A DNA stretch of 64,000 bases from the human T2T-CHM13v2.0 reference genome, Homo sapiens, in the NCBI RefSeq assembly GCF_009914755.1, contig NC_060936.1. One strand, given 5' to 3'. Positions 1 through 29,970 of the stretch are shown here, piece by piece. The notes beneath the pieces were generated by a model. The model saw only the letters and a list, made by a program, of their open reading frames with translations, was not told the origin of the DNA and made no database searches. The position numbers and the translations under genes were made by a program. Every line of letters starts with the position of its first letter. The stretch's first letter is position 1.

Positions 1-1799
1 AAATGTTGCTGTATGTTCTCATGACACCAACTCAGGAGAGGGAGTAGGTGCATTCCAAGCCTCTATTCATAGTTCAGTGATCTGACCCAGAATTATGGGG
101 TAGATACATTCAATAAAGAAAGAATGTCAAACGTAGCTAAAACCACAGAGACACGGACTTGGATTATAGAGAAGAGAGAGTCATGCTGATTTATTTCTAT
201 CTCCTATGAGAGAAGCAATTACCCAAACCCACAATCTATTGGAAAATCTCACGTGGAAGATACAAAAGTTACGGGACTTTTTGTCAGCCCGAAGAATGAC
301 CACGTAAAAAATCCCAAGTCCCCTCAGCAGACTGCGAATGTGCATGATTCTTTTCCAGCTCAGGGCTCTCCATTTTTTCTTAACCCCAGGCTGAATCAAA
401 GTGTGCAGATGTTTTCTGAGTTAGATCCCCTGTGCCTCTGCAGGTTCTGGTCCTGCACCTTTGATGGCCTCAGTATTCCCTGCAAGATGCACCTGCCTTG
501 ATTTCACTGCCTGATAACAATTAGAGATTCTATTAAACAATCTCTGCATAAAAGGTTTAGAGGATATGATGCAGAGAAATTAAATGAGCCAGAATGTAGA
601 TGCCTATAGTGTTTGCAATAATGCTTAATGTCAAACTAGGTGGAAAATGATGCTTTGCAGATGCTGCGTTATTTTTCAGGAGAACAGCTGATAGTCACCC
701 CACAATATTTTCAGCGTGTGTTTTTCCTCTAATAATGGGGAGTCAACTGACAGACCCAGTAGCACCAGGCATTCCACAGGAAGTAAACTTGTTGGTCATC
801 ATCTGGAAGTTTGACAGTGACATTAAAAAGCATGTTCACCCAATTTAAATAAAAGCTTAGTGAATTAAGAACTAGTTCCAAAGCTTTCCCTGCTGGCCTA
901 TTATAATGACCTCATTGGGATCTCCTTCTTCACAAAACCTGGGTCATACTGAACATGCCACAGTTAAAAATATGGCTGGGGAGAAATGGTACTAGTGTGG
1001 AGTGTCAGTATTTTCCTTTATGGTTTCAAAACCTGATGACATATTTTAATTTCCCAAGTCCCTTTCCTTGCTGCAAGGCCTCTTTTTCCAAATCCCTTTC
1101 TGGGGGTGAGATAATGGCATTCACATCTGCTTTATCAGCTGAATGCGGTGTTTCAAACTCATGGGATTGACTTTGAGGATTTATTTAATTTGCACGCTTG
1201 AAACAACTGCAGTCCTTCCCCAGCCATGGCATCTCATGGATGGCACAAAGAGTGAGGTTGGACTTCTTGGTTGCTCTTAATTTCACAGCCATGGTGGCCT
1301 CATTCTTCACATGCCAAGGGCAGCAATGGGACATCAATTTGAAATCAGTGACATGAGAGGTGACCTTGGAGTCTTAAGACCTAAGTCCAGGCCCCAGATT
1401 TGTTCCCAACTTATGGGACTGCTTAAGTTCTACCTGCTGTTTCCCTACCTATAAAGAGATGATGCTTATTCTATCTGATGCTGGGAGTCACAGAAAGAGC
1501 AAATGAGCTCAGGTGTGTGACACACTGTCCAAAATAAGCACCTGCTAAGGTCAATCATCTCCTACTTGGACCCAGGGCATCCTCCTTGGGTTTGTGGTTC
1601 CTGGGATTATGAAGTCTACAGAGAAGACAGAACCCAGTCTCAGCACTGCTGCAACCTCACTGGGATGGGAAGCCCCATGGGTGGGATGCATCAGTGAAGA
1701 AAACATGCAGAATGATTTCACAACTGTGACATTTTCCATTGTGCAATGTCACCTCCAATCTCTCCATTCTGCCTGCACCCAACATGTTGAACTTGTAGC

Positions 1800-2285
1800 T
1801 ATGGGGAAGGTCAATCATCCATGGGTCAATCATCCTGAGTGCCCCTGTGCATTCTTCCTGGGCATTCTGAGAATGTAAGGCACAAATGCTTTTTGTTCAG
1901 GCCATCTCTCAAGCTTGTGTTTTCCGTGAGCCACCTTGAGAGATGAGGCAATGTCTTCTTCTACAGAAGAAGCAGACTTCTTTACTGCTCACTGTAAAAG
2001 TAGTACGTTTCCCAAGTCTATGTTCCTCAGCTGGGACATAAACCACTGCATGAGCATCACTTGCCTGGGAACTGACCTTTGTGTGGTCCCAGGTGGACCT
2101 GGAGGCATTGGAAACTGACAGAACCTCATGAAGCTCAAAGCTGCCTTTTGTACTGTGAATAACAAAATCCTTTGCCTCTGACTCTGGAGTCTCATGTCTT
2201 CTGCTGGAATCCATGACACTATTAATAGCTTATTTTATTAGCTTACAAGTGGTGTAAAATTCTAGACCCCTCATGGTTCTTGATA
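1800..2285 (+). mobile_element. ERVL-class solo LTR (LTR41-like)
   Basis: 3' end ctttgcctctgactctggagtctcatgtcttctgctgg...cttacaagtggtgtaaaattctagacccctcatggttcttgata. Absent from duplication copy B. Confidence 0.65.
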
Positions 2286-2332
2286 TCGGCTTGTTATGAA
2301 AACACAGCTTAACTTTTGTCTCCCAATATTCC

Positions 2333-2624
2333 ATTGACTGATTGATTGATTGAGACAGGGTCTTGCTGTGTTGCCCAGTCTGGAGATCAGTGGTGTGATC
2401 ATGGCTCACTGCGGCCTCAACCTCCAGGTCTCAAGCAATCATCCCAATCCTCAGCCTTCTACGTAGCTGGAACTACAGGCGTTTGCCACCACACCTGCTA
2501 TTTTTTATAGAGACAGTTTTCGCCATGTTGCTTAGACTGGTCTCAAACTACTGAGTTCAAGCAATCCTCCCGCGTCAGCCTCCCAGAATGCTGAGATTAC
2601 AGGCATGAGCGACCGCCTGTGGCC
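2333..2624 (-). mobile_element. AluJ
   Basis: Dimeric Alu with (GATT)n tail and TSD ccaatattcc/ccagtattcc. Confidence 0.9.
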
Positions 2625-2839
2625 CCAGTATTCCTTTTAAATGTATTAACTGTTGGTTATTTTTCCCTGTCCTGGATAAACACTCCAGCAGACCTCCTGA
2701 TTTTTCTACTCCCTACTCATTACTAAGCTATCCCTTCATCAGCTGAGGTCATGCACCGTCCCTATTCACACTTAAAATATCTGGTCCAACAAACGGCAAA
2801 TCTGTTTTTGATTTAAATGGAGTCCTTTCCCCTCTCCTA

Positions 2840-27367: not shown

Positions 27368-27552
27368 AAGTAGCACCGAGGAGCCCAAAGAAACAGGGAT
27401 TCTGTGAAATTCTAATATCTGTGAAAGTCAGAGAAGAAGATACACCCAGAGGATCTCAGGTTGCATACTGCCTGTCCAGAGACCCCAAAATTTCAAAATG
27501 GGGAATACTGCCTATGTTGAGTAAGCCTGTAATGGTGGCTTTAGCATCACTG

Positions 27553-27859
27553 TTTTTTCTTTTTTCTTTTTTTTTTTGGGACAGAGTCTCAATCTGTCAC
27601 CCAGGCTGGAGTGCAATGGCGCGATCTCAGCTCACTGCAACCTCTGCCTCCTGGGTTCAAGCGATTCTCATGCCTCAGCCTTCCAAGTAGCTGGGATTAC
27701 AGATGTGCGCCACCATGCCTGGCTACTTTTTGTATTTTTAGTAAAGACGGGGTTTCACCATATTGGCCAGGCTGGTCTTGAACTTCTGGCCTCAAGTGAT
27801 CCCCCTGCCTCAGCCTCCCAAAGTGCTGGGATTACAGGCATGAGCCGCCGCACCGGGCC
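27553..27859 (-). mobile_element. AluS
   Basis: Dimeric Alu, TSD agcatcactgt/aacatcactgt. Confidence 0.92.
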
Positions 27860-27904
27860 TCAACATCACTGTCTTATAATAACTTTACTCAATGTGATTC
27901 TTTT

Positions 27905-29970
27905 GAGTGCTGGTGTGTGTTCTTTTGAACCAAATTAAGATAATTGGACGAACACCTCTTATGCTTTTATTCAGGTAAGAACTGCTATGGAGTGAACAAA
28001 TTCAATGAAACCACATTGCCAGATGGAGCAAAACCCATGGTGATGTGGGAATGAAGGGGTGTGGAAATCTGTCTGACTTCTTCACATCCTTTGCGAGAGG
28101 TGCAACCACCATCTGCCATGAGTTTATAAGGAAAATATGCAAGTGAAGCTTCGTTTTGTCAACCTGTAAATGGCCTGTAAAAGTTTCAAGCCCCTGTAGC
28201 CAACTGTGAGTACAAATAATCATTTTCCAGGTCAGAAACATCCACCCTTTCTCAGAACCCAGGCTGACAGCAAGCAAGTGAATGTAAACATTTTGTGAGA
28301 ATGCCCTTCCCTCAGCAGAGGCTCCTACTGCACCTGCCATAGGCTAATGCGCCTGACAGAATGCTATCCCTCTTGGTTTCACTGCCTGGTAAAAGTAGAG
28401 ATTGCAATAAACCATTGCTCCATGACAAACTAAGATATAATGGATGGAGATTAAATCACCAGATTTTAGGTGCCTGTAGTGCTTACAGCAGTGAGCACCC
28501 TCAAAATATGCAGATGGATGGCCAAAATGATGCACAGCCGACCCCAAGCCATGTGTCAGGAGAAGAGCTGATAGTCACCCTACAATGTGCCAGATGTGTG
28601 TGTTTGCTCCAATAGGGAGTTAAAAAGAACTCTCTCACTTCTTCCAAGCTGAGAACGGCAGGCCCCCAGCCACCAGGCATTCCACAGGAGGGAGCCTCCT
28701 TGCTTACCTTGGAGCAGCTCAGCAATAAAATAGCATGCGCTCATTATTCAAGTGAAAGTTTAATTAATTCAGAACTTGTTCCCACACCTTCCTAGACAGC
28801 TCCTGATAATGAGCTCTCTGGGCTTTTCTTCCTCCATCTTGTGATGTCACGCTAAATGGACTGCATCTAACAGCATCGATGGGATGAAAATGCATGAGTG
28901 CAGGGCAGTGGTTGACTCTGTGGATTCAGGACCTGCTGAAATATCACAACTCTCTCTCCCAATCCCAGGGCCTCTTCTCTCTCCTTGTTGGGGTGAAATT
29001 GGTGGTTTTTCACAAGAGTTTTGGAGGTGCGTGGGAAGACTCTCAACTCTAGGGAGTTTGAGGGTTTTAAAAAAAATTTGCATACTTACTCCAGCTAAAG
29101 CATTTCATGAATGGCATAGCCAGTGATGCTGAACTATCTATCGTCCTCAACCATACAGCATCACAGGGTCACTCTCCTCCACCAAGGGCAGCCAGGAACC
29201 ATCCCCTTTTGAGTACTGAAGTGAGCAACAGTGCCCCTGTGGCCAGAGGGGTCCAGATCTTCCTCCAGCTCACAGTGCTGTTGCATGACCCTACCTGCTT
29301 TATTTCTCCACGTGTAAAATAATAAAGTTGAGGGCACCTGTCCTACCTGCTCCAAAGCGCACCTGAAGTGAGGTGGGTGAAGAAGCACCTGGCTCAGTGA
29401 GTCCCCATCTCTGACCCTCACCAGGTCCTCTTCGTGGTCACGAGCCTGGGACTGTGAATCCACAGAGAAGACAGAGCTCAGCTCAGCATGGCCGCAGCCC
29501 CACTGGGAGGGGACTCTGGTAGCAGGTGGGACAGAAGAGGAAACAGTGATCATAGTTTTGCAATTGTAACTTTGTTCATGATGCAGTGTCTTCTAGCTCC
29601 TCCCAAATCCAAGCACATCTGGTACACTGACTATCAAATTATATCAAACTGTAGCATGGGATCAAAACATAATGTTACTTCGTCTCTCCCTGCCTCTTTC
29701 AAATTTATGAATTGAGCATTTTCTCACTGTTTCTGTATAAAAACCCCAGAAGATTTGATGACCTTTTCCAAACTATTAGATAGTGGACACTCTCCTGGTC
29801 AATTGAGGTCATGAAAACAATCTCGGTTTTATAATCAAAATATTCTAAGATGGAGATCAAGACCCTGCTTTTTATCTAACTGCCATCCTTCTGCTTCTTC
29901 AACTTGGATCTGCCGCAGGCTCCCCTTCGTCCCTCAAACACACCAAGCTTGTTACTTCCTCAAAGCCTTT
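27905..29970 (+). repeat. Ancient local duplication, copy B
   Basis: Same blocks in the same order as copy A, but without the LTR and AluJ found in copy A. Confidence 0.85.

What the first reader, a model, noticed from the sequence alone, without database searches (positions are those of the whole stretch)
1..29970. Ancient direct duplication of at least 2 kb, copies about 27.9 kb apart (1-2910 vs 27905-29970)
Seen: many colinear blocks match. Examples: tgttgctgtatgttctc/tgctggtgtgtgttctt (4/27908); ttttccag.tcag...cccaggctga (351/28223); tttcactgcctg.taa.a.tagagatt (502/28377); tcaggagaa.agctgatagtcaccc.acaat (675/28556); exact caccaggcattccacagga (763/28671); gcat.tcatg.atggca (1229/29100); acagagaagacaga (1618/29462); tgaggtcatg (2744/29804); and a shared L2 piece aacacaccaagc. 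Identity is roughly 60-75% by eye. Both copies share MIR/L2-like remnants, while only copy A carries an ERVL LTR and an AluJ. Inference: a duplication younger than MIR/L2 and older than these LTR/AluJ insertions, too diverged for standard (>90% identity) segmental-duplication tracks. Uneven conservation could point to a duplicated regulatory element. Copy A probably extends left of the window.
Basis: partly seen in the sequence, partly recalled or inferred. Interest (0 to 1): 0.72.

Follow-up and report, generated by a model that had tools for sequence, protein, structure and literature searches.

The report
Ancient TMEM132B copies patched by conversion
The two look-alike stretches are decayed partial copies of the end of the TMEM132B gene and the DNA behind it, two of at least five such copies in this gene desert, and they carry short 88-98% identical patches that were likely re-copied from the parent locus 1.2-2 million bases away long after the copies had drifted 25-35% apart.

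Summary
The match is real (E 5e-77; score 1594 against a best of 129 in 200 shuffles), but it is a small piece of something larger. The window holds two adjacent, inverted, deletion-riddled copies (A, B) of the 3' part of TMEM132B and its downstream flank. Three more copies lie at chr12:126.36, 126.87 and 127.65 Mb. A and B are not sisters (AU p<=0.013). Background identity to the parent is 67-76%, yet sharp 0.3-0.8 kb islands reach 88-98%, covering introns, four-fold sites and an old SINE. Third copies mostly gain no identity there (6 of 8 tests reject constraint on the parent), and a constrained parental exon alone gives only 78%. Best reading: ancient segmental duplication followed by patchy, late, long-range non-allelic gene conversion. 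One island carries the window's only CpG island, a CTCF-like motif and a RefSeq silencer. A 2014 paper ranks TMEM132B as the gene most enriched in anthropoid-specific constrained elements; its main text has no hit for paralog or gene conversion. Limits: one human haplotype, no other species, no Dfam.

The parts
1..23170 (-). Copy A (window part): inverted, decayed copy of the flank downstream of TMEM132B, parent chr12:125,707,903 down to 125,683,557; continues about 34 kb left of the window
   Evidence: colinear chain; 66.9% identity over 7495 aligned columns, left flank to 127.279 Mb included
2..1754 (-).
1770..2285 (.). A-only interspersed repeat (LTR-like; family name not tested); longest relatives 69-70% identical, so an old insertion that post-dates the duplication
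   Evidence: edges approximate
2345..2632 (.). A-only Alu-like insertion
19638..20283 (-). High-identity island in A vs parent 125,691,928-125,692,566 (55 differences in 637 columns; SINE-derived half 4.9%, CpG-rich half 10.7%); holds the RefSeq silencer 19810-19869 and a CTCF-like motif at about 19831-19850 (motif recalled)
19401..20050 (.). Only CpG-island-like stretch of the window (300-bp windows with o/e >=0.6, GC >=0.55)
26574..64000 (-). Copy B (window part): inverted, decayed copy of TMEM132B 3' exons, 3' UTR and flank; continues right to at least chr12:127,380,000 = parent 125,561,088
   Evidence: 76.2% over 20531 columns, right flank to 127.36 Mb included
27893..29806 (-).
28582..29022 (-).
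50510..51253 (-). Two 88% islands in B's copy of the DNA behind the TMEM132B stop codon (likely 3' UTR)
56575..59178 (-). Unprocessed TMEM132B pseudogene LOC100420116: last two coding exons with the intron between; in-frame stop in the penultimate exon, frameshifting indels in the last
58229..58953 (-). High-identity island (90.8%) over the penultimate-exon copy and both intron flanks
56751..57190 (.). B-only interspersed repeat interrupting the last-exon copy; genome-wide relatives 75-85% identical
60220..60392 (+). RNU1-104P: only the first ~75 bases are U1-like; 60306-60392 is a second copy of the intron sequence at 59447-59533

Best explanation
The window holds two of at least five decayed partial copies of the TMEM132B 3' end and downstream flank, likely made by duplication around or before the radiation of placental mammals, and their short 88-98% identical islands are likely tracts of non-allelic gene conversion with the parent locus 1.2-2 Mb away. 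Shown: the copies, their order and orientation, the broken exons and the islands. Inferred: a break in a copy is repaired by invading the parent in cis through a patch that is still similar enough, and a few hundred bases are copied; patches that stay alike keep exchanging while the rest escapes, and insertions and deletions cut the patches off. The donor is inferred to be the parent for coding islands (its frame is intact, the copies are broken); the direction is unknown for non-coding islands. Island divergences of 2-10% would place the last events in simian primates (calibration recalled).
For: Colinear chains of exons, introns and flank for A, B, C, D, E. 11 islands where 200-column windows reach >=88%: A 1, B 8 (one list row each), D 1, E 1. 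Null from 13 old-repeat pairs: 70 blocks, mean 0.635, SD 0.045, max 0.72; a simulation with wider rate variation than that (gamma shape 30) gave the observed island count in 0 of 5000 runs for each of A, B, D, E. D island: penultimate exon 3 of 192 differences (1/1/1 by codon position, four-fold sites 1 of 41), next 250 intron bases 8 of 248, while copy E differs at 72 of 247 of the same intron bases. E island: four-fold sites 5 of 52, in a copy with frameshifts. Third copies are not raised: 6 of 8 tests reject constraint on the parent at P<=6.1e-5. A coding exon of the parent outside any island differs from B at 42 of 191 sites, so parental constraint alone gives about 78%. The D island abuts a repeat whose 39 full-length relatives are 86-89% identical, so island and parent (96.2%) are more alike than that repeat and its kin.
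Against: One haplotype of one species: the decisive species-by-paralog tree was not possible. 2 of 8 third-copy tests do not clearly reject constraint (copy C P 0.022; copy D P 0.32, and D is raised over its flank, 74% vs 62%); three tests share one island and all assume equal branch lengths. The SINE test at the A island gave 20 B-derived vs only 6 P=A-derived sites among 98, which hints at slower evolution of the parent/A lineage there. That island looks functional (CpG island, silencer). With very strong rate variation (shape 5) the simulation no longer rejects for A (P 0.21) or B (P 0.63). The 13 null pairs come from 3 query elements and are not independent. Published work expects conversion mainly above 80% identity (PMC3924818, passages) and an eventual escape (10.1101/135152, passages).
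Confidence: 0.72

Rival explanations
1. The islands are duplicated functional elements (enhancers, CTCF/CpG sites) kept by purifying selection in both the parent and one copy since the duplication; different copies kept different elements.
Against: Islands include four-fold sites and plain intron at 96-98%, lie in pseudo-exons with stops and frameshifts, and third copies are mostly not raised (6 of 8 tests); 2-7% divergence would need near-total constraint in two places for the whole age of the duplication.
Confidence: 0.15
2. The islands are single late templated insertions by one-ended invasion or template switching (one end homologous, the other joined without homology), not the remains of long-running patchy concerted evolution.
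For: The three sharpest islands each have one abrupt edge where homology stops: A at parent 125,691,928, D at 125,660,624 next to an LTR-like repeat, E at about 125,663,095.
Against: The other edge decays stepwise (A 97-92-87-74%; E 72-84-87-93%) and B shows a continuum of 55-94% blocks, as nested tracts of several ages would give. Later deletions can also make abrupt edges. It is a variant of the best explanation, not its opposite.
Confidence: 0.09
3. Copies of different ages plus strong local mutation-rate variation give the mosaic; no exchange took place after duplication.
For: Simulation with gamma shape 5 does not reject for A and B; B is on average closer to the parent than A, D, E.
Against: Observed dispersion in old-repeat pairs matches shape about 100, not 5; islands sit in register inside 60-70% homology with edges a few bases wide.
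Confidence: 0.03
4. The segments are members of an interspersed repeat family, or the islands are assembly or polishing artefacts.
For: Searches of the genome skip very common words and score only top candidates (tool note).
Against: All matches of unique blocks are on chr12 125.6-127.7 Mb; chains include TMEM132 Pfam exons in order; islands carry 2-10% differences and indels.
Confidence: 0.01

Closest known systems
Human segmental duplications (>=1 kb, >90% identity; thresholds as quoted in PMC13333887, passage)
   Same: Intrachromosomal, multi-kilobase, clustered copies in both orientations carrying partial gene copies with introns.
   Different: Background identity is 67-76% and each island that reaches 90% is under 1 kb, so the standard definition is not met.
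Unprocessed pseudogene LOC100420116 (TMEM132B pseudogene, RefSeq)
   Same: It is the last two coding exons inside copy B.
   Different: The annotation covers 2.2 kb; copy B spans at least 67 kb and holds further upstream exons, and copies D and E carry like pseudo-exons.
Non-allelic gene conversion between human duplicates (Harpak et al., 10.1101/135152, passages; Mansai et al., PMC3924818, passages)
   Same: Tracts of a few hundred bases (mean 250 bp estimated, 880 bp detected), local discordance of identity, slowing as copies diverge.
   Different: Here the partners are 1.2-2 Mb apart, in both orientations, at 65-76% background identity, below the ~80% level said to be usual, and at least four copies exchange with one parent.
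Anthropoid-specific constrained elements at TMEM132B/C/D (del Rosario et al. 2014, PMC4158753; abstract, section 5, Methods part 1 and passages read)
   Same: Same locus: 123 such elements, TMEM132B the most enriched gene in the genome.
   Different: The main text has 0 hits for 'paralog' and 'gene conversion' and its one hit for 'duplication' is in a reference title. Overlap of those elements with the copies is untested; the supplements could not be read and may discuss it.

Membership tests
Segmental duplication, standard definition | At least 1 kb at >90% identity | tested here: not met
   Islands at >=90% are 0.56-0.84 kb; a 1127-bp block reaches 88%
Ancient segmental duplication | Long colinear homology of unique sequence at a few loci | tested here: met
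   Chains of 5-31 blocks for five copies; matches confined to chr12
Ancient segmental duplication | Age shown by presence of copies in other mammals | not testable with these tools
   No other mammalian genome is held; age rests on K 0.32-0.61 and an A-only repeat with 69-70% relatives
Interspersed repeat family | Many copies across chromosomes | tested here: not met
   7 of 7, 6 of 6 and 4 of 4 matches on chr12 125.6-127.7 Mb
Interspersed repeat family | Dfam/RepeatMasker assignment | not testable with these tools
   No Dfam library
Unprocessed pseudogene | Introns kept in order | tested here: met
Unprocessed pseudogene | Disabling stops or frameshifts | tested here: met
   B: one in-frame stop and frameshifting indels; E: frameshifting indels
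Whole-gene duplicate of TMEM132B | Copy of the 5' coding exon (PF15705) | tested here: inconclusive
   5 matches, one per TMEM132 gene, none in the desert; but the like search with PF23486 missed the B and E pseudo-exons
Non-allelic gene conversion tract | Local identity far above flanks, in register, at sites free of protein constraint | tested here: met
Non-allelic gene conversion tract | Local change of genealogy among paralogs | tested here: met
   P+B shared states enriched and third copies mostly unchanged; 2 of 8 tests equivocal
Non-allelic gene conversion tract | Paralogs cluster by species; shared polymorphism | not testable with these tools
   one haplotype, one species
Duplicated conserved non-coding element | Parent slowed at the element since duplication | tested here: inconclusive
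   Rejected in 6 of 8 third-copy tests; SINE test at the A island leans the other way

The most novel reading that the evidence does not exclude
Much of the 12q24.32 gene desert is a fossil array of TMEM132B copies that has kept importing sequence, regulatory elements included (CpG island with CTCF-like site and silencer), from the parent locus over megabase distances into the ape lineage, and this duplication plus conversion, not new enhancer invention, explains why TMEM132B is the gene most enriched in anthropoid-specific constrained elements.
Probability: 0.2. Interest if true: 0.82.

Novelty: new variant of a known kind. Interest (0 to 1): 0.6.

Why it matters
Models of duplicate evolution expect conversion to die once copies pass a few to 20% divergence. 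Here four copies at 24-35% background divergence, 1.2-2 Mb from the parent, carry patches only 2-10% diverged. With ape and primate telomere-to-telomere genomes this is a ready test bed for how long and how far conversion persists and whether similar patches keep themselves alive. It also offers a testable alternative account of the strongest primate-specific constraint signal reported in the genome, at a locus tied to anxiety traits in that paper. Practically, near-identical copies of TMEM132B exons (99% over 200 bp in copy D) could mislead short-read mapping and probes.

Tried and rejected
A+B as a simple tandem pair: rejected by AU tests. Interspersed repeat: rejected. Protein-level selection on the copies: rejected (even spread over codon positions, stops, frameshifts). 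GC-biased conversion inside islands: no consistent signal (p 0.03-1 in both directions); only the 330 bp beside the A island is strongly GC-richer in A (55 vs 22, p 2e-4). Rfam at gathering thresholds: 0 hits in the window. A third BLAST scoring scheme failed as unsupported. PF15705 found no 5' exon copy. Literature: 10 searches; 0 papers held 'LOC100420116' or 'TMEM132B pseudogene', and no listing described this duplication family; most subscription papers and browser tracks (self-chain, SEDEF/BISER calls) were not seen, so the copies may already be drawn there. Left open: whether the LTR-like repeat beside the D island is truncated (recalled as MER41-like, not tested), and the 220 kb between B and D.
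Full report
1. The observation. Self-BLAST gives 94-1750 vs 27986-29590 (59.3% with gaps, E 5e-77) and 2634-2907 vs 29696-29969 (62%, E 8e-11). The local alignment score of 1594 compares with a maximum of 129 in 200 dinucleotide shuffles and 126 in 66 real tiles; the second block scores 305 against 92. 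All 8 motifs checked are at the stated places. The A-only stretches at about 1770-2285 and 2345-2632 are repeats absent from B; their family names were not tested.

2. What it is. Searching the genome with either block gave only chr12 matches (7 of 7, 6 of 6): 125.706, 126.357, 127.286 (A), 127.314 (B) and 127.665 Mb. The 125.706 Mb site lies behind TMEM132B, whose last two coding exons I located by ORF and Pfam (PF23486, PF23487, PF15706). Alignment to 120 kb of that parent region (P) shows that the window is two adjacent inverted copies: A, window 2-23170 = P 125,707,903 to 125,683,557, and B, window 27096-60914 = P 125,708,383 to 125,657,074. B's left end reaches 26574 by homology to copy C. 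A continues left by unique colinear blocks to about 127,252,000; the far-left rows of the chain include repeat matches and are not counted. B continues right to at least 127,380,000 = P 125,561,088 and carries further TMEM132B exons. Other copies, in the parent's orientation: C (at least 126.356-126.361 Mb), E (at least 126.865-126.890) and D (at least 127.599-127.667). Only parts of C, D and E were read (10, 20 and 20 kb). The B and E exon copies carry stops or frameshifts. No copy of the 5' coding exon was found, but such profile searches miss decayed exons. Exon numbers used in my scripts assume nine exons (recalled).

3. Relationships and age. A+D may be long-branch attraction and there is no root. 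A coding exon of P outside any island differs from B at 10/65, 12/63 and 20/63 sites by codon position, so B alone has drifted about 15-19% there. The A-only repeat has long relatives at 69-70%. By recalled primate-to-placental rates this puts the duplications at or before the placental radiation: inference, not tested in other species.

4. The mosaic. Mean identity to P is A 66.9%, B 76.2%, C 71.9%, D 68.9%, E 68.3% of aligned columns, but 200-column windows reach 96, 95, 84, 99.5 and 96%. Islands: A 19713-20278 (92.5%); B 28582-29022 (89.5%), 50510-51253, 56594-58953, and three beyond the window; D 826 bp at 94%; E 842 bp at 91%. Two more B blocks, 1127 bp at 88% and about 950 bp at 87%, appear. 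Thirteen pairs of old long repeats give 70 blocks with SD 0.045 and maximum 0.72, matching gamma shape about 100; simulations reject chance for all four copies at shape 30 (0 of 5000) and at shape 10 (P<=0.004), but not for A and B at shape 5. The null pairs derive from three elements.

5. Conversion or selection. For: in D the penultimate exon differs at 3 of 192 sites with four-fold sites 1 of 41, and the flanking introns at 9 of 150 and 8 of 248, where E differs at 58 of 148 and 72 of 247. Of 8 third-copy tests that I chose where a non-island copy aligned over 200 or more columns, 6 reject parental constraint (P<=6.1e-5). A constrained exon alone yields 78%. At the A island a test against 26 unrelated SINE-like copies found 20 B-derived, 6 P=A-derived, 7 shared and 10 other sites among 98: the 6 need exchange, the imbalance hints at constraint. 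That island is the window's only CpG island, keeps more CpG in A than in P (8 vs 2), overlaps the RefSeq silencer and has a CTCF-like motif (recalled) in both loci. Conversion of an element that is also under some selection fits all of this best.

6. Mechanism and timing (inferred). A break in a copy would invade the parent on the same chromosome through a patch that is still similar and copy some hundreds of bases; similar patches keep exchanging, the rest escapes, and indels end the process locally. Stepwise decay on one side of the A and E islands and the continuum of B blocks suggest nested tracts; abrupt edges at deletions or an LTR-like repeat on the other side leave one-ended invasion open. 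Island divergences are D core 12/535 (2.2%), A 15/307 (4.9%), E 32/513 (6.2%), B 26/401, 19/287 and 65/660 (6.5-9.8%). The repeat beside the D island has 39 full-length relatives at 86-89%, so the D patch is younger than that wave. By recalled ape and monkey divergences the last events fall in simians, the youngest in apes.

7. What is known. RefSeq annotates the pseudogene in B. Mansai et al. (PMC3924818, passages) state that conversion mainly occurs above 80% identity and falls with distance. Harpak et al. (10.1101/135152, passages) estimate 250-bp tracts and an eventual escape as copies diverge. del Rosario et al. (PMC4158753; abstract, section 5, Methods part 1, passages) report 123 anthropoid-specific constrained elements at TMEM132B/C/D and TMEM132B as the most enriched gene; they define such elements by lack of overlap with non-primate constraint, which duplicated or converted DNA could meet. 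Their supplements were not readable and may bear on this. PMC13333887 (passages) considers sub-threshold ancient duplications as a source of regulatory families and has 0 hits for TMEM132. Ten searches, seen as listings and abstract starts, showed no description of this family; browser self-alignment tracks and subscription papers were not seen.

8. Verdict. A real feature, much larger than flagged: an ancient family of partial TMEM132B copies (near certain) with late, patchy, megabase-range gene conversion (0.72). Both processes are known; the age, distance and background divergence are unusual, and the link to the primate-constraint signal is a testable guess (0.2). New variant of a known kind; interest 0.6.

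Noticed in passing
window 60220-60394: RNU1-104P is a chimera: about 75 bases of U1 5' end (Rfam 40.9 bits, below the 69.5 cut-off) followed by an ~87-bp copy of nearby intron sequence (59447-59533; about 90% to both the parent and B's own copy), all inserted at one site after the duplication.
   Followed up: partly
window 55574-55666 vs 57362-57456: Short direct duplication (91% over 68 bp) that shows as a 65-bp insertion in B's last-exon copy; another small templated insertion.
   Followed up: no
window 31518-31570 vs 34860-34912 and 17377-17438: 53-bp direct repeat at 94% inside B, with a weaker match in A.
   Followed up: no
window 43894-44265 and parent chr12:125,688,435-125,689,293 (L013): A minisatellite (32-bp unit) sits at the homologous position in copy B and in the parent, which has its own tandem array there.
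   Followed up: no
window 47309-47706: 17-bp minisatellite, 23.4 copies, 88% matches.
   Followed up: no
window 19286-19638: Beside the A island, A is much GC-richer than the parent (55 weak-to-strong vs 22 reverse differences, p 2e-4): possible GC-biased conversion at a recombination hotspot or CpG-island spread.
   Followed up: partly
window 22171-22571, 23077-23218, 29363-29515: Exons of LINC02376 and LOC124903050 lie on duplicated TMEM132B-flank sequence (60%, 74% and 86% to the parent) and are transcribed in the parent's sense direction; LINC02376 starts at the end of copy A's homology.
   Followed up: partly
chr12:127.38-127.60 Mb and 126.89-127.25 Mb: B and D face head to head, E and A tail to tail: possible remains of large inverted duplications; the DNA between was not read.
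   Followed up: no
chr12:129,105,653-129,105,769: 117 bp behind the TMEM132B coding stretch queried match the TMEM132D region at 82%.
   Followed up: no
L028 4008-4319 (chr12:127,652,008 on): Copy D holds an open, almost perfect copy of the TMEM132B penultimate exon with both splice sites (2 amino-acid changes); a likely source of read mis-mapping.
   Followed up: partly
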